Assembly: GCA_963726265.1 (NCBI GenBank)
Contig: CAVSBQ010000002.1
Coordinates: 256,001-320,000 of the forward strand
Reading direction: 5' to 3'
Length of the DNA stretch: 64,000 nt
Source: Candidatus Aenigmatarchaeota archaeon
GTDB taxonomy: Archaea > Aenigmatarchaeota > Aenigmatarchaeia > QMZP01 > QMZT01
Shown here: positions 627 through 42,617 of the stretch, in pieces
Position numbering within the stretch: position 1 is the first letter of the stretch
Layout of the letters: the number at the start of each line of letters is the position of its first letter
Translations under genes and position numbers: made by a program
The notes under the pieces: generated by a model
What the model was told of the DNA's origin: nothing
The model's database searches: none
Seen by the model: only the letters and a program-made list of their open reading frames with translations

Positions 627-785
627 ATGGAATGGGGCTTGAAAATAGTCGTAATTGCGATGCTGCTCATAGTGTTTTTCGTGATAGTTGTCATGCTCAT
701 GACCAGCTGGTCCGGCCAGTCCAACAATGCCGTGAACGGTATTTTCGACTTTCTCAAAGGCCTAGGAGGCGGCCAGATAAAGTGA
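627..785 (+). CDS. Small pilin-like membrane protein
   Basis: MEWGLKIVVIAMLLIVFFVIVVMLM: single N-terminal hydrophobic helix; TATA-like TTTAAG about 25 nt upstream; first gene of the pilin-like cluster. Confidence 0.6.
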   Translation: MEWGLKIVVIAMLLIVFFVIVVMLMTSWSGQSNNAVNGIFDFLKGLGGGQIK

Positions 786-853
786 GCATGCCGCCACTCG
801 CAGCCGAAGCGAAAACCAAAGTTTAAATAGGGCCTAGGCACATATTAATCAAT

Positions 854-1150
854 ATGAGAGAGTCATTAGAGCTTGTGATTATAGCTATTACGCTTCTTGT
901 GGCGGCGCTAGTTGTTCTGACGATTTTTGGAAGTGGAATGTCACCTTTCGGTAACTTGACATCATTCAAAACCAACTGTATAACTACCGGACAGGTTGCA
1001 TGCACAAGCGGCGGATCAGAACCTGCAACTTGGTATCAAAAGGTCAATGTCGGCGGCGAACAAAAAAGCTGCTCAGATATAGCGACATTCGGCACATGTT
1101 GCACAGGCACACCACCAAAATGGAATAGCCAATCATCTGGTTGCGCTTAG
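854..1150 (+). CDS. Type IV pilin-like protein, Cys-rich C-terminus
   Basis: MRESLELVIIAITLLVAALVVL: SLE motif plus hydrophobic helix; several Cys; TTTAAATA upstream. Confidence 0.7.
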   Translation: MRESLELVIIAITLLVAALVVLTIFGSGMSPFGNLTSFKTNCITTGQVACTSGGSEPATWYQKVNVGGEQKSCSDIATFGTCCTGTPPKWNSQSSGCA

Positions 1151-1186
1151 TCTTCTATTTTTATATGGTTTTGTCAATTATTACTC

Positions 1187-1564
1187 ATGAGACTTTCTCT
1201 TGAAATCACGGTTATTGCGATTGTTCTACTGGTGATAGCTGCGGTGCTCATAGGCATTTTTGTGACGGGCGTAAACAATGTAAGTCCTTACACAGATGCC
1301 AGGGCCAACTGCATCAATACCGGCTTCTCAGTATGCAAGTCTATGGGAGTTCTGCCGCCCATGTGGTCGACACAGACATATATTTACAATGGCCAGCAGC
1401 AGACATGCCAGCAGATAACCGGATACAATGACTGCTCTCCTCTCGGCATCCCGAAGTGCTCCGGAACATGCAAAATCAGTTGTGACCTGTCGACAGAAAA
1501 GGAAATACCATCGACCCAGGGCACTTGCACCATTGGTCAGATATGCTGCACGAAAAAGGTTTAA
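1187..1564 (+). CDS. Type IV pilin-like protein, Cys-rich; paralog of 854-1150
   Basis: MRLSLEITVIAIVLLVIAAVL; shares NCIxTG..xC...P.xW...C with the previous ORF; extra C-terminal Cys-rich module. Confidence 0.72.
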   Translation: MRLSLEITVIAIVLLVIAAVLIGIFVTGVNNVSPYTDARANCINTGFSVCKSMGVLPPMWSTQTYIYNGQQQTCQQITGYNDCSPLGIPKCSGTCKISCDLSTEKEIPSTQGTCTIGQICCTKKV

Positions 1565-1570
1565 ACCTTT

Positions 1571-3783
1571 TCAAGAAGGCCACGTTATTGCTCTATCTCT
1601 GCCGACTTCTGTCAAGAAACCCGTCCCTGCGCCCAAGAATAAAAGCAGGTATGTTGGATTTCCTTGAAAACAAGCAGCGATCGCGAGACCAGCGCTGGCG
1701 GCTCTTCCTGCCCACGTGAGTACAACCTGTCCTGTGCTAAGGTATCTGACACAATAGTTATTACCTTCAACATCAGTTCTTTTGCTTCCCATCCCTGTCA
1801 AATCAATGGTAATGCCGTCTATCATACATTCGCCAACACTGATGCTTTTTGTTGCAAAGGTCTCATCACCGATTTCTTGCATGTCATTATAAATCAAATA
1901 ATTTTCGTCGGCATAAACGCCTATCTCATCATATTTTCCATTGAGGTCATTGTCTCCGATAATCCAAAAACATTTGTTTGGCCAGTCGCTAACAGCGTCG
2001 CCTGTTTTTTTGCATTTATCATTGTTTATCCTAAACAAAACAAACTCAACCGGTATGAAATCCGTAGTTACTTTGCTCCTGTTAATGAATATGGTAATGT
2101 CGTCCAGGATGTTGGCCGCATCTTGCTGAACTCCTGGTGTTTTTTTCAGTTCATCTGTTGAAAAATAGCAGGGAGATATTTGTTCAGTTCATTCTCAGGT
2201 ATGCCGATAAAATATAATGATGATGGTGGGAGGCCTAAATCATAACATTTCAAAGGTATGTCTTCAATGATTTTTTCTTCAAGGTTTACACCACCTGTGC
2301 TCAAATCAACATCGTGGTAATCAAAATAATAATAAGTGAAGTAGCTGTTGCTCGTATCTACTTTTTTGAACAAAAGATATGTTTGCCTGTTTTCATTTAC
2401 CTTTCTTAAAGGCAGGTAAATCTTGCCGACAGCCTCTACGCTTTGGTTGTTTGTTTCGCCGAACAGATCCTTGCTGTCATCTTTTGACAAGGCCTCCAGA
2501 ATGTCAAAGACGTCATAACCTATATAACTGTTCACAGAATCTTTATCGAAATTATTACATATGTGGTATTTTGCATTGTTGCCTATACTATCTGGATCGG
2601 CGCATGTTGTCGATCCTGTGTTTGGGTCATACACATACTTTTCACACAAGAAATTGTTTTTGGCTACGTCGAAATTACTGAGATAGCATGGTGAAGCCAT
2701 ATGAAAATTTTTCTCCACTGTTCCTGCTTCCGGTTTCCATTTCAGTATAACCGGTTTGCCCTCGAGCTTGCTGTCAAGATTAAATTCTTCCTTCTCCTCG
2801 AAAGGCGATTTTAAAATAATTTTATTTCCGGATGGTATGTATTTTGCTGTGTCACTCGAGTAAAGAGCTAAAGCAATTGCCGCAGTTTCCATCGTTGCGA
2901 ATCTTTTTCCTGTTTTCGTTATAAATTGCGTCAGGCCATATTTTTCTATCCTGTCCGTGATTATTTTTTTAATAGCTTCCTCTTTTATATATTCGTTTAG
3001 GATTTGGGTTCTGCCTTCGTATTTTATGGCATTTTTAACCAGCTTTTTGACTCCTTCTTCACCCATTTTTTCTATTTCCTCTTTAGCAGCCTCTTTACTA
3101 AGTTCAATCCCAGCTTTTTTTGATAGCATCTGTACCACAAATTCTTCGGAGGGCTTTATCAGCATGGCTGCATCTCTTTCACCACAAACCCGGCAATTTT
3201 AGTTGGCGGTATCAAAGAAACCAGAGCGAACATAAGATGCACTTTCCAATTGCTTTGTAAAGTCCACGTATCTTCATCGCTTGGGAATACATTCCAATAT
3301 GTAATAAACGCAGATCTCCATAATATGGTATCCAGTCTTCTTTCTTTGAAATGTCCTGAGGAAGTTTAAAATTTTTGACAGTGCATCTTGTACTCGTTGT
3401 TTCAATCCCGTTACACTCTACGCTAGTTTCTCCGATGCTGTAATTTTGGCTAGCCGTTCCTGAATTAATGCCATTTGGCTGCTCAGATGATGTTGCCGTC
3501 GCGGTTGCTGTTTTAGAGTATTTTGTATTCAAACCCGGAACATTGGTCCTCATTTGTTGAAACGGTGTTTATGGCGCAAGTCAATGCATCGACAGATGCC
3601 TTGAGAGGTTTCATAATATGCCATTGTATTAGTTTTCTTGCCGAAAAGCTTGTCCATCTGCTTCCCAAACTCACCAAGAAAGCCGCTCTGGCTGGCGATG
3701 CCGCCTATTATTATGATGGTAAACAGCACGACAAGAACCATTCCAATCGGCGTTTTCAAGAAATCTTCTTGGCCCTTCCTCAT
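1571..3783 (-). CDS. Large pilin-like (class III signal) exported protein, split into four ORF fragments
   Basis: N-terminus MRKG|QEDFL followed by a hydrophobic helix; collinear fragments 3550-3783, 3212-3553, 2146-3165 and 1571-2038. That these form one gene is inference. Confidence 0.55.
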
Positions 3784-3796
3784 AATTAATAATTGA

Positions 3797-3821
3797 TATT
3801 TGATTTATATATAATCAAATA
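3797..3821. promoter_or_regulatory. Perfect 9-bp inverted repeat enclosing a TATA box in the divergent promoter region
   Basis: TATTTGATT-TATATAT-AATCAAATA, 14-38 nt upstream of the minus-strand ATG at 3783. Confidence 0.5.
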
Positions 3822-3886
3822 AAAGCGATGGCTGATTGGCGAATCTGGTTTCAAATTTAATAAGCAGGCCGCTTAAAATATTAAAT

Positions 3887-3997
3887 ATGAAGGCATTCTC
3901 CCAGCTTCTGACCGGAGGCATGATAACCTTTTTCATGGGTGTGGTAGTTTTCGTCATAATGGCGCTGCTTGCCGCGAAATGGCTGGGTTATATATGA
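3887..3997 (+). CDS. 36-aa pilin-like peptide (not in ORF track)
   Basis: MKA|FSQLLTGGMITFFMGVVVFVIMALLAAKWLGYI; TTTAATAA about 25 nt upstream; its stop overlaps the GAGGTG RBS of the next gene. Confidence 0.6.
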   Translation: MKAFSQLLTGGMITFFMGVVVFVIMALLAAKWLGYI

Positions 3998-4007
3998 GGT
4001 GCTATGC

Positions 4008-4205
4008 ATGAAAAAAGGTCAGACTCCGGACATGCTGTTCTGGTTTGTTACAATACTCATTGCAGTCGGCGTTGCTATAGTGCTTACCCTTTTCTTCGTA
4101 AATACGTCAAAGACCTTCGACAGGCCTTCGGAAGAAAATCCGCTTATACAGAATGTTGCGCCGTTGGTTCTTTTGATGTTTTTTAAGCTCAGAAAACAAA
4201 TATAA
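4008..4205 (+). CDS. Pilin-like protein (class III signal peptide)
   Basis: MKKG|QTPDMLFWFVTILIAVGVAIVLTLFF; GAGGTG RBS. Confidence 0.7.
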   Translation: MKKGQTPDMLFWFVTILIAVGVAIVLTLFFVNTSKTFDRPSEENPLIQNVAPLVLLMFFKLRKQI

Positions 4206-4209
4206 GTTT

Positions 4210-4778
4210 ATGAAAAGGGGTTCTCAGAGTTTGATAATCTTCACTGCCGTGGCTGCAGTTTTTATCGTTCTTGCATTGGTTATAGGTAACAGATGGTTTA
4301 CGTATTTGGTCAATGGCAAATGCGTTTCAGACACACTGAGGGACATCGATATCATGACAGACCAGTTCAAGAGTTCTTCAACGGAATGGCACGCAATAGC
4401 TATAAGGATGAATGACTGATACAGCGGCGTAGTCTTCGCTAACGGTCAGCAATGGAAGACCGTTACAGAGCTAAAGGGTATGAAAGAGGTGAAATGCAGC
4501 GATGATGCGGACGCACACATATTAATCTTCAAGAGGGATATAGGGTTGGTGGAGGCAATTAAATCAAGGAAAAAGTACTGGCTGCTGTGATTGCACGTGA
4601 TGTAACTTTGAGGGATGTATACGGCTATACGTTTTTTACCAATATGCCGGGAGGGGTTCTGGCAGGCTCGGGGTAAAGGATGAGTCTCTGATTTATTGTC
4701 TCGTATTCAGGATAGATCAAAAAAACAAGGGAATAGAAATAACCAAATGGGAAACTGTCAGCGCAAAGGAGAAATGTA
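4210..4778 (+). CDS. Pilin-like protein, interrupted after 4419 (end approximate)
   Basis: MKRG|SQSLIIFTAVAAVFIVLALVIG; coding-like sequence continues to about 4778 across frame breaks. Confidence 0.5.
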
Positions 4779-4791
4779 AAATTTGATTACG

Positions 4792-5997
4792 ATGAAACTC
4801 AAGGGCGACATACCCGGAGAAAGGATGATGATTTTCATTGGCGTGGTACTCATAGGCATGCTTTTTCTGACCACAATTATTCTGCAAACGCTTACGCCAA
4901 ACCTTAAATCCAGCGAGGAAGCAAGATTCTCCCTATTTCGCGCACACCATTGCTTCATATATAGGGATGTTGTCGAGCGTTGAAAGCGGCGTGGTGGAAA
5001 GGGACTTCGAGGAACCGGTAGACATACAAATCAAAAAATATACATGGATAGGAACGTTGACGCATATGAGACAGAGGCCCGCCGTCTATTATGTAGAGGT
5101 TCGTTTACAGGAAAGGGGATCAAAAAAGCAAAAAGATGTTCCCTGACATGACAAATTGCGAAGTCGACTGCCTCAACGAGAACTGCAAATGTGAAAGCTG
5201 TTCTGAGGGTGAATGCACCATTGTCTCTCTTGAAAAATCGACCACCAGCGAGGCCGTTCCTTTCATAGGTTTCGTTGACACGGGCAGTGAAAATTCAATT
5301 AACATAACAGGCATGAGATTCGTATCGCTCCGAAAAGATTCGTCTTCCCAAAGGCGTCAAAATCGGCAAAGTCGAGATAAGTATCTTTTTGTACAGAGCC
5401 CTCTGAAAGCGATATTATAAACGTAATAGACAGTTACTGCGCTAAATACGGCCTTGACAAGAATGTCGTGAAGGCGCACATAACAGCCGAAACCGGCTTC
5501 AAGCATTGCGGCCCTGAGGGAGAAATTATAGGTTCAGAGGCCGGTGCCCAAGGAATAATGCAGCTTTTGCCCGCAAACGGCAAACGAAATGGCCACAAAA
5601 TACAACGAGAATATAGATTACCGGAACCCTCTCGACAACATAAAGGCGGGCATACTTTATCTTTACGACAGAAGGATGGTGATGGAACAATACACGCAAA
5701 GGGAGGATCTTGACAGGGTGATGGTCGCCAGTTATAACTGCGGCAAAATAGTTGAACTGGTTCAAAAAAATCTGCAATAAAAACGAAGCCGGATGCTGGA
5801 GCAATGTGGAAAAATACATAAATTCCAAAAACCCAGAGGGAACATACTGCCAGGGGGCGAATGGTGATGAAACTTATAACCATGTGAAAAAGGTTTTCGA
5901 AAAGTATAAGCCTTGTTTCGAAAACAACCCCACCTGTTATTTCGCGTGTTTCGGCTCGTCGTGTGCGGCTAGATTGTGGGAGGTTACGGTAAAATGA
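4792..5997 (+). CDS. Pilin-like protein with C-terminal lytic transglycosylase (SLT/GH23) domain; multiple frameshifts
   Basis: N-terminus MKLKG|DIPGE plus hydrophobic helix. Joining frames over about 5381-5997 gives YGLDKNVVKAHITAETG...SEAGAQGIMQLLP...NPLDNIKAGILYL...MVASYNCG...DETYNHVKKV, i.e. the SLT motifs in order. The join to the pilin N-terminus is inferred. Confidence 0.78.
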
Positions 5998-6422
5998 AGG
6001 GAGACTACGAGTTTCTGAACATAACTTTCGCATTGATCATATTCATGGGCACAATAGTGCTGATTGTGCTGATGATAAGGGGCAACATACTAAGCTTCAG
6101 CGGAGGCGTGGCCTCCGATGTGACTCAAATAAATGCAATAGAAGCTTCTCACATGGTTGAATATTGCTTCACAAGCATGGAAGGCGGCGACTCGGAGAAC
6201 ATAGCAACCACGCTTCTTGACAAATACAACGGCAAGAGCATCGCTGAGATATGCAAAATAGACAAGCCGGAGATAAAAGTTGAGATAATAGACATGGAAA
6301 ACGAGAAAAAATGGAGCTTCGGCACAGTTTCGAAATCGAATCACGAAATATGGGTTTCAATAATTTACGAAAATGCAGGCGTTAAAAGTGTAAATATGGG
6401 GAAGATGAATGTCGAAATATAG
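5994..6422 (+). CDS. Pilin-like protein (class III signal peptide)
   Basis: MKG|DYEFLNITFALIIFMGTIVLIVLMI; start overlaps the upstream stop (ATGA). Confidence 0.7.
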   Translation: MKGDYEFLNITFALIIFMGTIVLIVLMIRGNILSFSGGVASDVTQINAIEASHMVEYCFTSMEGGDSENIATTLLDKYNGKSIAEICKIDKPEIKVEIIDMENEKKWSFGTVSKSNHEIWVSIIYENAGVKSVNMGKMNVEI

Positions 6423-7404
6423 CGGAATGGTCGACACCATAGTCCTCGTTGTGATAGCTGCGGCACTGCTTGGGGCTTTTTTCATATTCATTCAGATAAA
6501 CAACTTCATAGGCATAATAAAAATAAAGGGAGAGGTTGATGTTTACCTGAACATACAGGATCAAGGAACACAACTGCTCAGTTTCCTCAAATCCCAGAAA
6601 AGCGGCACTAACTACATGGGAATGCTGGGTTCATATGCGGCAAAGGATACACCGGATGAATATGACAAAGAAATAACTTCGACATTGCAGAAGCTTGGAG
6701 ATTATGACCTTTTCGTCCAAAATCAGAGCCAGGAAATAATAAAGGAATTCAAATCAGTAAATTCACCAGCAGGCGGACAGAATATAGGTGTTGTGATAAA
6801 ACTTGACTGGCCGTTGAAAAATCACAATACGATAAACAACGGATACGGATGGAGGGATCTGTCTGGCAAAAGGGATTTCCATGGAGGCCTGGACTTTGCA
6901 GTCACGGAAGAAGAAGTTTATTCCGCATACCCGACTGGTAAAGTCGTAAGGATGGGCAAGGGGTGTGAACCGTCACCAAATGTCTGTGCTAATGTCGATT
7001 CTTGTGCTACAAGTAACGATCAGTATTGCTGCTGCAATAGCGGCCTTGGGAATTTCGTTGTGATAAAGCACGAAATTAGCGGAGAAACTTTCTACACGCA
7101 TTATGACCATCTTAAAGAGGTTTACGTCCACATGAATGACGAAATAGGTAAGGATATAATGCCAGACCAGCCTATAGCGAAGTCAGGCAATACAGGGTAT
7201 ATACAGGGGGAGAACGGCTATCATCTTCATTTCGAAATGAGCAAGAGCGAAATTAAAAGCGATGACGCCTCCATAGACCCTTGCATCTATTTCCCACAGC
7301 CTGTGCCAGTAAACTGCGAACAGGAATCGCATCGGCCTGCTGGCCTTTCGGTTGATATACCGCTTCCTAATGGGCAGGTTGGAGAGGTATCGTTGATAAC
7401 ATGA
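6409..7404 (+). CDS. M23-family zinc metallopeptidase with pilin-like N-terminal helix
   Basis: GYGWR...FHGGLDF (HxxxD), GLGNFVVIKH, YTHYDHL, SGNTG, HLHFE (HxH), IDP; N-terminus MSKYSG|MVDTIVLVVIAAALL. Confidence 0.9.
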   Translation: MSKYSGMVDTIVLVVIAAALLGAFFIFIQINNFIGIIKIKGEVDVYLNIQDQGTQLLSFLKSQKSGTNYMGMLGSYAAKDTPDEYDKEITSTLQKLGDYDLFVQNQSQEIIKEFKSVNSPAGGQNIGVVIKLDWPLKNHNTINNGYGWRDLSGKRDFHGGLDFAVTEEEVYSAYPTGKVVRMGKGCEPSPNVCANVDSCATSNDQYCCCNSGLGNFVVIKHEISGETFYTHYDHLKEVYVHMNDEIGKDIMPDQPIAKSGNTGYIQGENGYHLHFEMSKSEIKSDDASIDPCIYFPQPVPVNCEQESHRPAGLSVDIPLPNGQVGEVSLIT

Positions 7405-8150
7405 AAAAAGCACAAGGCGCGGTTTTATTGGCAATAATGTTAATAGTAATTACTGTAATAATAATAAGCAGCCTTCAATTTTACTTGTCCAGCAGCATAG
7501 AAAAAAAATCAGAACTCCAATTCGATGAAGACCTTTATGTAACCGAGAATGCACTCAGGCTATCCAAGCTTTATCTGGAAACGGCCCTAGATTACTCTGT
7601 TTATCAGGCAATGTTTGATGCAGGAAAGGATGGTCTACCTAAAAACATCGATGACCTGAAAGGTAAACTCGCGTCTAAAATTTCAGAAAACATGAAAAAA
7701 TACACGGAAAGGGAATTTAACTTCATAGGGAAAATAGCGAGACTTCCGACCTACGATAAAAATATGCTAACGATAGAAAAATTCGGCGAAAACGATTTAA
7801 ACGTTTCAGCCACAGGAAACGGTAATATTTATTTTGAGGAAACAACAACCGTGCAAATGGAGAAAAAATACATAAGACTTGAACTTTCGTCGTATCTGGA
7901 AAGAATTTACAGTTTCAATTTCTTTGGTCTTTATGAAAAAGCGCTGGAATTCTCGAACAAAATAAACGAGTGCGAAGACGAAAAGATAATCGACGGTATT
8001 TATGAGATTTCATTGGCGACGGACCAAAACAAAAAACCATGCAATGTCAAGGTTTCGGTTAAAGACGTCTCCCAAACCTTCCCCGTCTTCAACGGCAGGG
8101 AGGTTGCCTTCGAACCGGTCGTTTTCGAGTTCCTTGTGAGCGTCGCGTGA
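7401..8150 (+). CDS. Pilin-like protein (class III signal peptide)
   Basis: MKKA|QGAVLLAIMLIVITVIII; ATGA overlap with the M23 gene. Confidence 0.7.
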   Translation: MKKAQGAVLLAIMLIVITVIIISSLQFYLSSSIEKKSELQFDEDLYVTENALRLSKLYLETALDYSVYQAMFDAGKDGLPKNIDDLKGKLASKISENMKKYTEREFNFIGKIARLPTYDKNMLTIEKFGENDLNVSATGNGNIYFEETTTVQMEKKYIRLELSSYLERIYSFNFFGLYEKALEFSNKINECEDEKIIDGIYEISLATDQNKKPCNVKVSVKDVSQTFPVFNGREVAFEPVVFEFLVSVA

Positions 8151-39561: not shown

Positions 39562-40119
39562 TTAGCGGACATCCTTGATGCTCCTCAGGACTTTGAGATA
39601 AATCTTTTCAAGCTTCATCTCCTTTACTTTCTTTTCAAGGTATTTTTTGTCCAGCCCCTTTCCCTGCTTAAGCAATACGTATTTCGCATCAGTCAGATCT
39701 TTTTCGCTTCTGAATAGCAGTTTGAATACCACCACATCTTCTGGTGAATTTATCCAGACTTTTTGCCCGTAAAAATTCACTTTCCTTCTTCTTCTGAACG
39801 TTTCCCTGCCGAGTTCCGTGTAAACGCCCTTGACATCAAGCCTGTACGGAGACTTGTCATCAAAAACCGTGAAATGACTTTTCTCGTCGAGCGCGAGTTT
39901 CACGCCGTCCTCGTCAACGGAAAAGTGGTTTTTCTTGAGGAAACCGGCGAATTCGCCGATTCTGCCACCAAGTTGTATGACGATGTCGATGTCGGCGCTA
40001 GTCCTCGGCATCCCATAGTAAGCGACGCTTACGGCTCCGACCAGCATGTACGGGATTTTTTTCTCGTTCAGAAACCTCGTGACAATCCTTATGATTTCAT
40101 CGTATCCTCTCATGTGCAT
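39562..40119 (-). CDS. Nucleotidyltransferase, MenT/AbiEii-like putative toxin
   Basis: YMLVGAVSV..YG.PRTSADID...KL...SEKDLTD. Confidence 0.75.
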   Translation of the reverse strand: MHMRGYDEIIRIVTRFLNEKKIPYMLVGAVSVAYYGMPRTSADIDIVIQLGGRIGEFAGFLKKNHFSVDEDGVKLALDEKSHFTVFDDKSPYRLDVKGVYTELGRETFRRRRKVNFYGQKVWINSPEDVVVFKLLFRSEKDLTDAKYVLLKQGKGLDKKYLEKKVKEMKLEKIYLKVLRSIKDVR

Positions 40120-40315
40120 CCCCGTTTCTGTAAATCTTTTTCAGTTCAATGACCAGCTCTTTCTCGCTGATTTTTGGTTTTTTTGCTCTGATGGAACCTA
40201 TGCAAATATTCATCACGGCCCTGTTCATGTCAGCCATCGCCTCAAGCGACCTGCTGCCGTGCAGCTTTCTCATCTGCCTGACTTCGGGCATCAGTTCCCT
40301 TTTTTCATGGCTCAT
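40097..40315 (-). CDS. 72-aa putative antitoxin (MenA1-like)
   Basis: MSHEKRELMPEV...LEAMADM...SIRAKKPKISEKEL; ATGA overlap with the gatD stop; overlaps the NTase start. Confidence 0.55.
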   Translation of the reverse strand: MSHEKRELMPEVRQMRKLHGSRSLEAMADMNRAVMNICIGSIRAKKPKISEKELVIELKKIYRNGDAHERIR

Positions 40316-41698
40316 TGCCCTGCCTCGCTTAGTTTTTTTGCAGAAAAAGCATCCGTTTCCGTGCGGGTCGTTATCTCGCCCGCATAGCTCGTGCGCATCA
40401 TCTCCCTGATTTTTTCCATGCTTTTCGTCTTGCCGAGCACCCACATGAGCTTTATGTATGCAGTTTCGGTGAGCATGTCCTCGCCGGGTATCGCTCCGGA
40501 TTCTATGAAAAGCTTGCGCAGGTTCGTGTAGACGTAAGGATTGACCCTGCCGTAAATCGTCTGTGACGTGACGACAAACGGAATCGCTTCCGAATGCTTT
40601 TTGATTATGGTCGTCCACGGCTTGCTCGAGACCTCGGTAGGCACGTGGCCCATGCCCGTCCCCTCGATGACGAAGCCCTTCGCGCCGTTCTTTACGTGAT
40701 GCTCGATGACATTCGGGTGCGAGCCCGGATAGGCCCTGAGGATTGCGACGTTCGGCTCGATTTTCGCGTCGACCTCCACTCGTTTTTTATCGTCCCTTTT
40801 CCTGTGATTCGCGTTCGTTATTTCCATTCTTCCGCTGGGAAATATCTTCGCCAGCGCGGCCTCGTTTATGGGCTGGAAGGCGTCGCGCCTGGTCGTGTGC
40901 ATTTTCCTGACCTTCGTCCCGCGGATGAAATGGCAGTAGTCGTCGTTCGTGCTGCCATGCATGCACACCCCGACCTCGGCGATGTCCGAGATCGCTATGC
41001 GCGAAGCGCATATGAGGTTCATGCCAGCGTCGGAAGAGCCGCGGTCGCTGGAGCGCTGCGCGCCGACCAGAACGACTGGCTTGTAAAGGTTGCGCAGGAA
41101 AAAGGACAACGCCGCGGAAGTGTAGTGCAGCGTGTCCGTGCCGTGCGTGATTATAACGCCTTTCTTGCCAACGTTCAGCTCCTTCGCGACGTGCCTCGCT
41201 ATTTTTGCCCAGTCCATCGGGCTCCATGTCCTCGCTCATCTTGTTGAGCGGGCTGGACATCTCAAGGTTGACTATGTGAGAAAGCTCGGGGATGTTGTGC
41301 AGAAGTTCTTTGGGATTCTCGACTGCGTAGACGCCGCCTGTCCTGTAATCCACGCGGGAAGCGATGGTGCCGCCCGTCGAGATGAGCGCGACTTTCGGCT
41401 TGTTCGCGTCGAACCTGACCTCGAGCAGGCTTTTGTTCGTCCTGCCGAACTCGTATTTCGCTTCCTCACCGACTTCCCTGGGCTCGCGCTCATGAGACTT
41501 CGCAATCTTCAGGCCGGCCATGTCAAAGCCGACGTTGTAGCCGCTGTCGAGCTTGATGATAACCGTCTTCTCGTCCCCGTGCAATGGCTTCGGCATGAGC
41601 AGGCCGGCGTATTTCTTCCCATCTTTCTCGACAAGGACCCTGTCGCCGACGGCTATTTTCTTGTCGTCAAGAATCCGCTGTATTTCGTGAGAATACAT
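40312..41698 (-). CDS. gatD: Glu-tRNA(Gln) amidotransferase subunit D (frameshift near 41220)
   Basis: KLDSGYNVG, STGGTIASRVDYRTG, HGTDT, GAQRSSDRGSSD. Confidence 0.94.
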
Positions 41699-41723
41699 AA
41701 TTAGAATATGCCGCAAGTTTATA

Positions 41724-42617
41724 TTAAACTTGCATTCTGGTGATATAATCTTTAAGTTTATTATAAAAATCTGTGTGCAACGGAATACCGCTTTCGGCCG
41801 CAACCATCGCATTAAACGTGGCCTCTTCATATCTTTTCATGACGCCTAAAGGTAAGGAATGGCCATACCAGGCCAGAAGGTTTTTCTTGTTAAGTGATAT
41901 CGCTTTCCTAAAAAGCCTTTCCGCAACTTCGTAATTCCTGTGCGCGTAATAACAGGAACCAATGTTGTAATAGATTTCAGAAAAGGCCTCTTCCCTGCTC
42001 ATGCCGCTCATGAAAAAGCCGTAATCAAGTTCTGTTCTTGAATTGTATTTTTCCCAGACAGCGTCATCCATGAATTCGCTCCAGTTGGGATGGAAACTCT
42101 TACGGGTTCCATCGCTTCCGTTCCATATCAGATAGCAGTGATATTTGTCAGGAGACCATGTCCTGGTCTTGGCCAGCGATATGGGAAAATCCATTTTCTC
42201 CCTCAGTTTTTCCCCGACGTCAAGGTGTATGAAACAGGAAACATCACAGTCCAGCATTTTGCTGTCCAGTGCCTCACCCAGTAACATGACATTTTTACCG
42301 GTATTGAATTTGGGTTTTTGGTTCATAATTTCGTTAATTATCAACATGTTTTCAGGGCCTTTCTCCGGCCTGCATCTTTCCATCGCCGTTTCTGCGATGT
42401 CCGAAAGGATTTCGCGCGCATTGCTCAGGCTGAAATTGTAGCCGATGCCACTTGAATAACGGTGCTCGACGGTTACAGCGGCGTCCCCGAAGGTTTTCCT
42501 TTCCAAAATCCCGATCTCTGGATCCTTCTTATCAGATGCGACGCTGCCGAAAACAGCTAGGCCTGCGCCTGCTATTGTCACATCCTTCAGGAATTCCCTT
42601 CGTCTGATGACTGCCAT
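41724..42617 (-). CDS. Tat-signal protein with C-terminal TPR and possible transglutaminase-like core
   Basis: IRRREFLK plus hydrophobic stretch; LDC...YHCY; YYNIG...A...F.KAISL TPR pattern. Confidence 0.65.
   Translation of the reverse strand: MAVIRRREFLKDVTIAGAGLAVFGSVASDKKDPEIGILERKTFGDAAVTVEHRYSSGIGYNFSLSNAREILSDIAETAMERCRPEKGPENMLIINEIMNQKPKFNTGKNVMLLGEALDSKMLDCDVSCFIHLDVGEKLREKMDFPISLAKTRTWSPDKYHCYLIWNGSDGTRKSFHPNWSEFMDDAVWEKYNSRTELDYGFFMSGMSREEAFSEIYYNIGSCYYAHRNYEVAERLFRKAISLNKKNLLAWYGHSLPLGVMKRYEEATFNAMVAAESGIPLHTDFYNKLKDYITRMQV

What the first reader, a model, noticed from the sequence alone, without database searches (positions are those of the whole stretch)
627..8150. Archaeal pilin-like cluster carrying two peptidoglycan-cleaving enzymes: candidate contact-dependent bacterial cell-wall breaching apparatus
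Seen: about 11 consecutive genes start with pilin-type N-termini (KG|Q, RG|S, KG|D, KA|Q, KA|F, or xxSLE) followed by one hydrophobic helix. The last four genes (4792-8150) overlap at their start/stop codons. One ends in an SLT domain and another, two genes later, in an M23 peptidase. Established: GH23/SLT enzymes cut the MurNAc-GlcNAc glycan, M23 enzymes typically cut peptide cross-links, and archaea do not make murein. Inference: these are minor pilins or pseudopilins that display both activities on a pilus tip to open a bacterial sacculus for predation, parasitism or scavenging. Archaeal peptidoglycan-hydrolase homologues are known in general; I do not know of a characterised pilin-fused operon like this. 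No assembly ATPase, platform protein or prepilin peptidase lies in this window.
Basis: partly seen in the sequence, partly recalled or inferred. Interest (0 to 1): 0.92.

Follow-up and report, generated by a model that had tools for sequence, protein, structure and literature searches.

The report
Archaeal pilin-like operon with murein cutters
A tiny uncultured archaeon (Aenigmatarchaeota) carries a conserved operon of pilus-subunit-like surface proteins, two of which have bacterial cell-wall-cutting enzymes built into them, which suggests a surface device for attacking, attaching to or feeding on bacteria.

Summary
Window 627-8150 holds about 11 genes with an N-terminal membrane helix. Seven have a [K/R/S][G/A] pilin-type leader. 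One carries an SLT (GH23) domain and one an M23 peptidase, and the last four genes overlap. The SLT gene and two neighbours are frame-broken in the window, but contigs from two public runs differ by 1-2-base indels at exactly those sites, so these are assembly errors.

The operon is syntenic, next to Alba, in 18-19 of 19 sampled genomes of the family and in most of a sister family of Aenigmatarchaeota. Catalytic residues are kept. The genome shows no murein synthesis, but it has one prepilin peptidase and several pilus ATPase/platform sets outside the window.

New here:
- A three-subunit complex is predicted (0.78 against 0.00 for controls).
- Relatives carry the same scaffold without either enzyme, so the M23 domain is an insert in a small carrier.
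- The cassette is hypervariable at a fixed locus.

Processing by the prepilin peptidase and filament assembly are not shown. DPANN murein hydrolases and bacterial modular pilins are in print. This operon was not found in print, but this scan noted it before on other genomes (e1-710964, e1-5000399).

The parts
627..785 (+). 52-aa protein with one N-terminal hydrophobic helix and no KG motif. A TATA-like box lies about 30 nt upstream.
   Evidence: a similar 50-aa ORF sits in relative L040
854..1150 (+). 98-aa Cys-rich small protein starting MRESLE plus a hydrophobic helix. Candidate structural (major) subunit. Leaderless start with a TATA-like box.
   Evidence: family of 191 clusters; all named ones are Aenigmatarchaeota hypothetical proteins
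1187..1564 (+). 125-aa paralogue starting MRLSLE, Cys-rich.
1571..3783 (-). One large surface protein (MRKGQ N-terminus plus helix), about 735 aa, split into four ORFs by assembly indels. Orthologues are 722-1030 aa. No Pfam domain. Fast-evolving, candidate adhesin.
3887..3997 (+). Possible 36-aa ORF (MKAF... plus helix). Not verified and not seen as an ORF of 50 aa or more in relatives.
   Evidence: only
4008..4205 (+). 65-aa protein, MKKGQ leader plus helix. Conserved as a protein of about 76 aa in relatives.
4210..4787 (+). Subunit of about 190 aa (MKRGS leader) with four invariant Cys in the family. In the window it has a TGA at 4417-4419 at the place of an invariant Cys, and frame breaks at 4564 and 4669.
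4792..5997 (+). SLT/GH23 lytic-transglycosylase subunit, about 400 aa. It has an MKLKGD leader, a helix, a carrier N-domain, a Cys-rich linker and a C-terminal SLT domain with the catalytic Glu (ITAETGF). It is frame-broken by assembly indels.
5994..6422 (+). 142-aa pilin-sized subunit (MKGD leader). Part of the predicted heterotrimer.
6409..7404 (+). 331-aa M23 endopeptidase subunit. Helix 4-33, small carrier domain 52-115, M23 domain about 125-312 (HxxxD, YxHL and HxH motifs kept) inserted before a conserved C-terminal docking strand 313-330.
7401..8150 (+). 249-aa subunit (MKKAQ leader). The model shows a 73-residue N-terminal helix and a beta-sheet head. Some orthologues carry a PG_binding_1 insert.

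Best explanation
This is a conserved Aenigmatarchaeota (DPANN) operon. It encodes a multi-subunit cell-surface assembly of small proteins, each held by one N-terminal helix behind a short [K/R][G/A] leader of the type IV pilin (class III signal) kind.

Two subunits are modular carriers. One has a GH23/SLT lytic transglycosylase appended. The other has an M23 zinc endopeptidase inserted before its C-terminal docking strand.

Inferred mechanism:
1. The subunits are exported N-in/C-out.
2. At least some are trimmed by the genome's single A24 prepilin peptidase.
3. They bundle through their N-terminal helices into a short pseudopilus or pilus-tip-like complex.
4. That complex holds a glycan cutter and a peptide cutter together outside the cell.
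5. On contact they open bacterial peptidoglycan, for attachment, parasitism, scavenging or antagonism.

Shown: genes, synteny, domains, catalytic motifs, absence of own murein genes, presence of pilus machinery elsewhere in the genome, and a predicted heterotrimer.

Inferred: processing, assembly into a filament, substrate and biological role.
For: - Synteny next to Alba in relatives.
- The SLT-protein profile is found in 18 of 19 genomes of family f1 and 21 of 28 of f5. The M23-protein profile is found in 19 of 19 and 23 of 28.
- The SLT catalytic Glu is invariant in 8 of 8 orthologues. The profile matches MltC, MltF, Slt70 and MltE with the Glu aligned.
- M23 HxxxD and HxH motifs are kept, with one orthologue (L014) reading HLY. 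Its fold matches ShyA, DipM, LytM and lysostaphin at E about 1e-7.
- Own genome (88% complete): one Mur-ligase gene beside folate/purine genes, no SEDS, no PBP.
- Relatives: Amidase_3 beside the cluster (E 3.5e-37), and PG_binding_1 inserted in the last subunit (23.8 bits against a cut-off of 23; also P0018).
- [K/R][G/A] is kept across orthologues: 13 of 13 (249-aa family), 8 of 8 (142-aa), 8 of 9 (M23), 6 of 8 (SLT), 5 of 8 (190-aa).
- The same motif heads other pilin-like genes of this genome, e.g. MKFANKKAQSAMEYL and MRGQ....
- One A24 peptidase, T2SSE and T2SSF genes are present.
- The 249-aa model (pLDDT 87.2) has helix 4-76 plus a beta head.
- The complex of the 142-aa, M23 and 249-aa subunits scores ipSAE 0.78 in 3 of 3 runs; best of 3 controls 0.00; partner pLDDT 80-81; at least 91% of contacts shared between runs. 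A mark of this kind was reached by 116 of 157 solved complexes and 2 of 215 mismatched pairs, and these counts hold only roughly because my own alignments were used. The contacts are parallel N-terminal helices plus the conserved M23-protein tail 313-324.
- Enzyme-less scaffolds with the same gene order occur in G029, G204 and G127.
Against: - No Pfam pilin model matches any subunit even at E 10. A canonical-looking pilin of the same genome used as control has none either, so this test says little.
- In the SLT protein and the large protein about 8 polar or charged residues lie between KG and the helix, unlike classical class III signals.
- The two MRxSLE proteins have no leader to cleave.
- No assembly ATPase or platform gene lies beside the cluster in any locus looked at.
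- Fold matches of the 249-aa model to pseudopilins (GspK Z 6.2, XcpV/W 6.0, EpsI/J 5.8, TTHA1218 5.5) lie below the tool's noise mark of Z 7-8. Foldseek found nothing at E <= 0.001.
- A bundle of parallel N-terminal helices is also what a plain membrane-anchored complex would give.
- Enzyme activity and substrate are untested.
- One orthologue (L014) lacks the second His of HxH.
Confidence: 0.55

Rival explanations
1. The same proteins form an ordinary membrane-anchored complex. The N-termini are uncleaved signal anchors (type II membrane proteins), not prepilins. The assembly stays in the archaeal membrane and holds the SLT and M23 domains at the cell surface, where they degrade bacterial murein that the cell touches or that is free in sediment. 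No filament is involved.
For: - Polar spacers after KG in two subunits.
- No pilin-family match.
- No adjacent ATPase or platform gene.
- The predicted interface is largely the membrane helices.
- Pseudopilin fold matches are below the noise mark.
Against: - The specific G/A after K/R is conserved in five gene families over many genera. A positive-inside tail alone does not require that.
- The leader form is the same as in other pilin-like genes of this genome.
- The helix of the 249-aa model runs to residue 76, far beyond a membrane span.
- The gene set (several pilin-sized proteins, one larger, and one of about 1000 aa) resembles minor-pilin operons (resemblance recalled, not tested).
Confidence: 0.3
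2. The hydrolase-like domains act on something other than bacterial murein. Candidates are the envelope of an archaeal host (pseudomurein peptides, S-layer proteins or glycans), chitin-like polymers, or the archaeon's own envelope during assembly of surface structures.
For: - From general knowledge, not tested here: known DPANN hosts are archaea, GH23 includes non-murein glycanases, and M23 enzymes can cut other Gly-rich peptides.
- Enzyme-less versions of the scaffold exist, so its core role is not murein cleavage.
Against: - PG_binding_1 and Amidase_3 in relatives point to murein.
- The SLT profile's best solved relatives are all murein lytic transglycosylases, with the catalytic Glu aligned.
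- No own wall-synthesis genes were found.
- From established knowledge: pseudomurein has beta-1,3 links that lysozyme-type enzymes do not cut.
Confidence: 0.1
3. The block is a remnant or cargo of a mobile element (virus lysis module or conjugation-type cell-wall hydrolase set like PrgK/TraG) that landed in the chromosome.
For: - Low GC: 0.423 against 0.526 for the rest of the window.
- Cluster proteins are only 23-41% identical to those of a same-genus genome whose flanking TrpRS is 90.6% identical.
- SLT plus LytM is the pairing seen in PrgK (8s0u among the fold hits).
Against: - The locus is fixed between ScpB and Alba/TrpRS in two genomes of the genus, and next to Alba across genera.
- The cluster is present in 18-19 of 19 family genomes.
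- In lower-GC relatives the cluster GC equals the flank GC.
- None of the 53 other ORFs of the window scanned has an integrase, capsid, VirB4 or VirD4 domain.
Confidence: 0.05

Closest known systems
Bacterial modular type IV pilins (Streptococcus sanguinis PilB with a vWA module, PilC with a lectin module) and the T2SS minor-pseudopilin tip complex GspK-GspI-GspJ. Source: PMC8179133, passages read; structure 3ci0.
   Same: - Short leader ending in G/A.
- A long N-terminal helix with a functional module grafted on a small carrier.
- Several small subunits plus a bigger one.
- A predicted heterotrimer through the N-terminal helices.
- That paper also lists a peptidase module among bacterial modular pilins.
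   Different: - The organism is an archaeon.
- The modules are murein hydrolases (SLT appended, M23 inserted).
- No IPR012902/Pfam pilin signature is detected.
- Processing and filament assembly are not shown.
- Fold similarity to GspK is only Z 6.2, below the noise mark.
[quoted passage not shown] Sources: fam00969 in PMC8204110, passages; PMC9723730; PMC10936187.
   Same: A DPANN archaeon without murein carries an extracellular GH23 domain. The proposed role is binding or degrading bacterial walls.
   Different: - Those are single proteins of up to 3,000 aa in other phyla.
- Here the subunit is about 400 aa and sits in a translationally coupled operon with an M23 subunit and non-enzymatic partners, in Aenigmatarchaeota.
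- Larger SLT-bearing ORFs (500-2,035 aa) do occur in other families of this phylum.
Secreted archaeal peptidoglycan hydrolases that kill bacteria (Woldo of Halogranum salarium: M23 plus two PG_binding_1 domains). Source: PMC12352652, passages.
   Same: An M23 domain of bacterial type in an archaeon, aimed at bacterial murein. A PG_binding_1 domain appears in relatives of the last subunit here.
   Different: - Woldo is one secreted modular protein with a patchy distribution in haloarchaea.
- Here catalytic and binding functions sit on different membrane-held subunits of a lineage-wide operon.
- The words pilin, pili and Aenigm do not occur in that paper's main text.
Cell-wall hydrolases of Gram-positive conjugation systems (PrgK of pCF10, with LytM and SLT domains behind an N-terminal anchor). 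Its LytM domain 8s0u is among the fold hits. The PrgK domain make-up is recalled, not tested here.
   Same: An N-terminal membrane anchor, SLT and M23/LytM activities used together, and local opening of murein for a surface machine.
   Different: - There both domains are in one polypeptide inside a T4SS operon, and they act on the cell's own wall.
- Here there are two polypeptides, no VirB4/VirD4 in the window and no own wall.
Methanococcus maripaludis Epd pili and EppA-processed DUF361 pilins with Gln at +1.
   Same: KG|Q and KA|Q leaders. An S-x-E pattern just after the start of the small MRxSLE proteins resembles the recalled QxSxExxxL motif.
   Different: No Pfam Class_IIIsignal or Pilin_N hit. 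The MRxSLE proteins have only Met before the motif.

Membership tests
SLT / GH23 family-1 lytic transglycosylases (Pfam PF01464) | Domain match above the curated cut-off | tested here: met
   Intact orthologue L014:6376-7569 scores 43.1 bits against a cut-off of 21.3. The window pieces score 17 and 22 bits in two frames. The profile hits MltC, MltF, Slt70 and MltE at E 2.8e-11 to 1e-5.
SLT / GH23 family-1 lytic transglycosylases (Pfam PF01464) | Catalytic Glu in the E-S/T motif | tested here: met
   E231 is invariant in 8 of 8 orthologues. It aligns with the ES of MltC. The window reads ITAETGF.
SLT / GH23 family-1 lytic transglycosylases (Pfam PF01464) | Cleavage of the MurNAc-GlcNAc bond with 1,6-anhydro product | not testable with these tools
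   Needs an enzyme assay.
Peptidase M23 (Pfam PF01551, LytM/lysostaphin type) | Domain match above the cut-off and the M23 fold | tested here: met
   47.2 bits against a cut-off of 28.7. Foldseek gives 59 PDB hits at E <= 0.001, including ShyA at 1.5e-7, DipM, LytM and lysostaphin.
Peptidase M23 (Pfam PF01551, LytM/lysostaphin type) | Zinc and catalytic motifs HxxxD, YxHL and HxH | tested here: met
   H158, H234 and H272 are invariant in 16 of 16; D162 and H274 are in at least 90%. L014 reads HLY. The motif names are recalled.
Type IV pilins / class III signal peptide proteins | Short basic leader ending in Gly/Ala | tested here: met
   Seven window proteins (the M23 subunit has SG; its orthologues have KG/KA). 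Conserved in orthologues: 13/13, 8/8, 8/9, 6/8 and 5/8. Not met by 627, 854 and 1187.
Type IV pilins / class III signal peptide proteins | About 20 hydrophobic residues directly after the cleavage site | tested here: inconclusive
   The hydrophobic stretch starts within about 5 residues of the G/A in 5 of 7, by my reading of the N-termini printed. It starts about 8 residues later in the SLT protein and the large protein.
Type IV pilins / class III signal peptide proteins | Alpha-1 helix of about 50 residues carrying a beta-sheet head (lollipop shape) | tested here: met
   249-aa model: helix 4-76, then beta strands, pLDDT 87.2. M23 subunit: helix 4-33, low confidence 30-50, small alpha/beta domain. 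Only these two were modelled.
Type IV pilins / class III signal peptide proteins | Match to curated pilin models | tested here: inconclusive
   There is no Pfam pilin hit at E <= 10. A canonical-looking pilin of the same genome also has none.
Type IV pilins / class III signal peptide proteins | Cleavage by a prepilin peptidase and assembly by an ATPase and platform | not testable with these tools
   The genes exist elsewhere: one A24, 4-5 T2SSE, T2SSF pairs. No link to this operon is shown.
T2SS-type minor pseudopilin tip complex (GspK/I/J) | Fold similarity and hetero-oligomer through N-terminal helices | tested here: inconclusive
   GspK Z 6.2, rmsd 3.0, 94 residues aligned. XcpV/W Z 6.0 and EpsI/J Z 5.8. 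All are under the noise mark of 7-8. A heterotrimer is predicted (0.78 against 0.00).
Gram-positive T4SS wall hydrolases (PrgK/TraG type) | Both domains on one polypeptide inside an operon with VirB4/VirD4 | tested here: not met
   There are two separate genes. No T4SS ATPase family was found among the 53 other window ORFs scanned.
Woldo-type secreted modular PGH | Catalytic domain plus wall-binding domain on the same polypeptide | tested here: not met
   No PG_binding_1 was found in the own genome. In relatives it sits on another subunit.

The most novel reading that the evidence does not exclude
Aenigmatarchaeota of this order build a type IV filament (a short pseudopilus) whose tip complex carries a glycan cutter and a peptide cutter as a contact-dependent drill for bacterial sacculi. 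That would make them cross-domain episymbionts or predators of bacteria. The cassette is swapped between lineages at a fixed locus as an arms-race or host-range determinant, and enzyme-less versions serve other hosts.
Probability: 0.3. Interest if true: 0.85.

Novelty: new variant of a known kind. Interest (0 to 1): 0.68.

Why it matters
Hosts and lifestyles of Aenigmatarchaeota are unknown. Whether DPANN archaea interact physically with bacteria is an open question, argued so far from single large GH23 genes in other phyla.

This operon gives a defined, lineage-wide, multi-subunit candidate apparatus with two complementary murein hydrolases. It comes with a predicted subunit interface that can be mutated, and with natural enzyme-less controls in sister genomes. 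These make the question testable by biochemistry, proteomics of N-termini, and imaging of enrichments.

It would also extend the 'modular pilin' principle from bacteria to archaea, and to enzymatic cargo.

Tried and rejected
- **Pfam pilin models:** no hit for seven proteins at E <= 10 (six window subunits and one orthologue-only subunit). A control pilin (L032:2302-2508) has none either, so this is uninformative.
- **Foldseek against the PDB, 249-aa model:** nothing at E <= 0.001.
- **Profile-profile comparison between subunit families:** no homology (probabilities 3%, 29% and 3%).
- **Bacterial promoter and terminator scan:** 22 promoter-like sites against 17.0 ± 4.1 in shuffles, and 7 terminator-like sites against 8.0 ± 3.3. 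This is uninformative for an archaeon.
- **Expression:** no RNA holder listed.
- **Own-wall idea:** no SEDS, no PBP, one Mur-ligase gene, no Amidase_3 and no PG_binding_1 in the own genome, which is 88% complete.
This is a weak test. An error or a real nonsense change is more likely, and the rows shown do not settle it.
- **Pseudogene reading of the frame breaks:** rejected. Two studies' contigs carry indels at the break sites, and identity to orthologues is as high in the broken genes as in the intact ones.
- **Chimeric join:** rejected by synteny.
- **The search for related loci with the 8-row alignment:** failed for lack of a conserved stretch. A 4-row alignment worked.
- **The protein-atlas search:** could not be reached, twice.
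- **Literature searches:** searches found no description of a pilin-like SLT+M23 operon in Aenigmatarchaeota. Supplements were not opened.

Full report
**What is in the window**

The window is G000:C2:256001-320000 of a 1.13-Mb, four-contig genome, 88% complete. It is archaeal: the window encodes CDP-archaeol synthase, TBP, Alba, GatD/E and deoxyhypusine synthase. Relatives that carry the same operon are titled Candidatus Aenigmatarchaeota archaeon.

Region 627-8150 has GC 0.423, against 0.526 for the rest of the window and 0.518 for the genome.

It holds about 11 genes whose products begin with one hydrophobic helix:
- 627 (MEWGLK)
- 854 (MRESLE)
- 1187 (MRLSLE)
- 3783 on the minus strand (MRKGQ)
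- perhaps 3887 (MKAF)
- 4008 (MKKGQ)
- 4210 (MKRGS)
- 4792 (MKLKGD)
- 5994 (MKGD)
- 6409 (MSKYSGM)
- 7401 (MKKAQ)

The last four genes overlap (ATGA, 14 nt, ATGA). Outer genes have TATA-like boxes about 25-32 nt upstream of the ATG. Inner genes have GGAGG-like ribosome sites.

Pfam finds Peptidase_M23 in 6409-7404 (47.2 bits against a cut-off of 28.7). It finds SLT in two frame pieces of 4792-5997.

**The frame breaks are assembly errors**

The SLT gene changes frame at least five times. Gene 4210-4787 has an in-frame TGA and two frame changes. The minus-strand gene is four ORFs. In relatives each of these is one ORF.

Contigs of two public runs from two studies (freshwater sediment metagenomes) cover the region. 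They differ from the window by 1-2-base indels at 2175, 3177, 3312, 3527, 4564, 4669, 4927, 5350 and 5378. X2 alone also shows them at 5575 and 5771, where X1 has no cover. Seven more rows were not shown. These places are the frame-switch sites mapped with orthologues.

Applying the 11 listed changes in a script fuses the minus-strand ORFs to 701 aa and the SLT pieces to 120 + 285 aa.

Three breaks remain that the rows shown do not settle:
- one in an A-rich run at 5121-5135
- one between 3676 and 3783
- the TGA at 4417-4419, which aligns with an invariant Cys

GatD elsewhere in the window is also frameshifted. I therefore treat the genes as intact in the organism and used intact orthologues for the SLT analyses.

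**Conservation**

The cluster is syntenic next to Alba in every relative locus I read.

In a sample of 251 genomes of the phylum:
- The SLT-subunit profile matches 65. By family: f1 18 of 19, f5 21 of 28.
- The M23-subunit profile matches 88. By family: f1 19 of 19, f5 23 of 28.

Full-length forms occur essentially only in these two families. Elsewhere the domains sit in larger ORFs.

The big protein database holds only 14 clusters for the M23 subunit and 6 for the 249-aa subunit. It holds 191 for the small Cys-rich MRxSLE family, and every named one is an Aenigmatarchaeota hypothetical protein.

**Enzymes and target**

The SLT catalytic Glu is invariant in 8 of 8 orthologues. It aligns with that of MltC; MltF, Slt70 and MltE are the next solved relatives.

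The M23 motifs are kept. The AlphaFold model (pLDDT 78) matches ShyA, DipM, LytM, lysostaphin and the LytM domain of PrgK at about 1e-7.

The own genome shows one Mur-ligase gene, which lies among folate and purine genes. It shows no SEDS protein and no PBP transpeptidase. A wall of its own is therefore unlikely.

In relatives an Amidase_3 gene lies beside the cluster, and a PG_binding_1 domain is inserted in the last subunit. The own genome has neither. Together this points to bacterial murein as the substrate. That remains an inference.

**Pilin-like or only anchored?**

For the pilin reading:
- The K/R-G/A dipeptide is conserved in five subunit families across genera.
- The same leader heads other pilin-like genes of this genome, several beside ATPase and platform genes.
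- The genome has one A24 prepilin peptidase, 4-5 T2SSE ATPases and several T2SSF genes, all outside the window.
- The 249-aa subunit is modelled with confidence (pLDDT 87.2) as a 73-residue N-terminal helix carrying a beta-sheet head.
- Four of the top 11 rows of a search over 48,161 chains are pseudopilins or pilins: GspK Z 6.2, XcpV/W 6.0, EpsI/J 5.8 and TTHA1218 5.5.

Against it:
- All those Z values lie under the tool's noise mark, and Foldseek finds nothing.
- No curated pilin model matches, although a control pilin fails too.
- Two subunits have a polar spacer after KG.
- The MRxSLE proteins have no leader.
- No assembly gene lies next to the operon in any locus read.

I put a true type IV filament or pseudopilus at roughly 0.3-0.45. 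I put a complex of some kind at about 0.8.

**A predicted complex**

The 142-aa, M23 and 249-aa subunits were folded together with their alignments. The score was 0.78 in each of three runs, against 0.00 for the best of three controls. Partner pLDDT was 80-81, and at least 91% of contacts were shared between runs.

The tool's mark was reached by 116 of 157 solved complexes and 2 of 215 mismatched pairs. Those counts hold only roughly here, because my own alignments and three chains were used.

The interface has two parts. One is the three parallel N-terminal helices. The other is the small N-domain (39-82) and the conserved C-terminal strand (313-324) of the M23 subunit, packed on helices and strands of the 249-aa subunit. 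The model supports binding; it does not show it.

**The enzymes are grafted modules**

In three genomes of the sister family (G029, G204, G127) the same gene order is kept:
- a large minus-strand protein
- a subunit of about 205 aa
- a subunit of about 160 aa
- a subunit of about 130-145 aa
- a subunit of about 143-170 aa
- a subunit of 341-358 aa

In these clusters the SLT-family member is only the N-domain. The M23-family member is only the N-domain plus the conserved C-terminal strand. Pfam finds neither hydrolase in 16 proteins. The two profiles found no hydrolase part elsewhere in those genomes at E <= 1e-5.

The alignment shows the M23 domain (window residues about 125-312) as an insert between the carrier and the docking strand. 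The scaffold is thus a structure in its own right, and the hydrolases are cargo. This is the logic described for bacterial modular pilins (PMC8179133, passages).

**A hypervariable cassette**

A same-genus genome (G004) has the cluster at the same place, between ScpB and Alba/TrpRS.
- Against G004, TrpRS is 90.6% identical, but the cluster proteins are only 23-41% identical (M23 subunit 28.6%).
- Against another genus (G013), TrpRS is 78.8% identical, but the M23 subunit is 61.0% identical.

This fits either cassette exchange or an old polymorphism under diversifying selection. Either is what one expects of a host-interaction device. I built no tree, so the direction of any transfer is open.

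**Comparison with what is known**

In print:
- large extracellular GH23 proteins in Woesearchaeota and Pacearchaeota, read as tools against bacterial walls (PMC8204110, PMC9723730, PMC10936187, PMC11537232; passages)
- secreted archaeal M23 hydrolases that kill bacteria (PMC12352652; passages; no mention of pilin, pili or Aenigm in its main text)
- modular pilins in bacteria

My searches found no description of this operon. I did not open supplements, which may list such genes.

This scan has noted the same operon family before in two other Aenigmarchaeota genomes (e1-710964, e1-5000399), and analogues in other DPANN. The window is therefore a further member, not a first sighting.

**Verdict**

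The operon is real and conserved, and it very likely encodes a surface complex with two active murein hydrolases. It is pilin-like in several tested respects, but it is not shown to be a pilus. It is a new variant of known kinds (modular pilins; DPANN murein hydrolases). Interest 0.68.

Noticed in passing
window 627-8150 against G004 locus L039 and G013 locus L013: The cluster is a hypervariable cassette at a fixed locus. The same-genus genome has flanking TrpRS 90.6% identical but cluster proteins only 23-41% identical. Another genus has TrpRS 78.8% identical but the M23 subunit 61.0% identical. The cluster GC of 0.423 is below the genome's 0.518 only in this higher-GC genome.
   Followed up: partly
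L042 (G029), L043 (G204), L044 (G127): Sister-family genomes keep the same scaffold operon without the SLT and M23 domains. The M23-family member keeps only its N-domain and the conserved C-terminal strand.
   Followed up: yes
window 4417-4419: An in-frame TGA aligns with an invariant Cys of the 190-aa subunit family. It is most likely a base error or a real nonsense change. No tRNA-Sec was called by a quick ARAGORN run.
   Followed up: partly
window 40097-41830 (-): GatD, an essential gene, is split by one frameshift. The beta-helix surface protein upstream of the window (C2:251590-253613) is also in two ORFs. The assembly therefore carries indel errors outside the cluster too.
   Followed up: partly
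L014:5-1225 (G017): An Amidase_3 (N-acetylmuramoyl-L-alanine amidase, E 3.5e-37) with a weak TPM domain hit lies beside the cluster in one relative. No Amidase_3 was found in the window's own genome.
   Followed up: partly
window 854-1150 and 1187-1564: Two small Cys-rich proteins start MR-x-S-L-E directly at a leaderless start. They are the only two such N-termini in the genome and belong to a family of 191 database clusters seen only in Aenigmatarchaeota. Their role (major subunit, or a secreted peptide) is open.
   Followed up: partly
window 725-817: One contig of run X2 skips 91 bases here, inside and after the first small gene. This is strain variation in a second study.
   Followed up: no
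G000:C2:525766-531381, 679897-689471, 729116-731072, 1034018-1036244: The genome holds several further pilin-like gene groups and at least three ATPase/platform sets. That is a large share of a 1.1-Mb genome given to type IV filament parts.
   Followed up: partly
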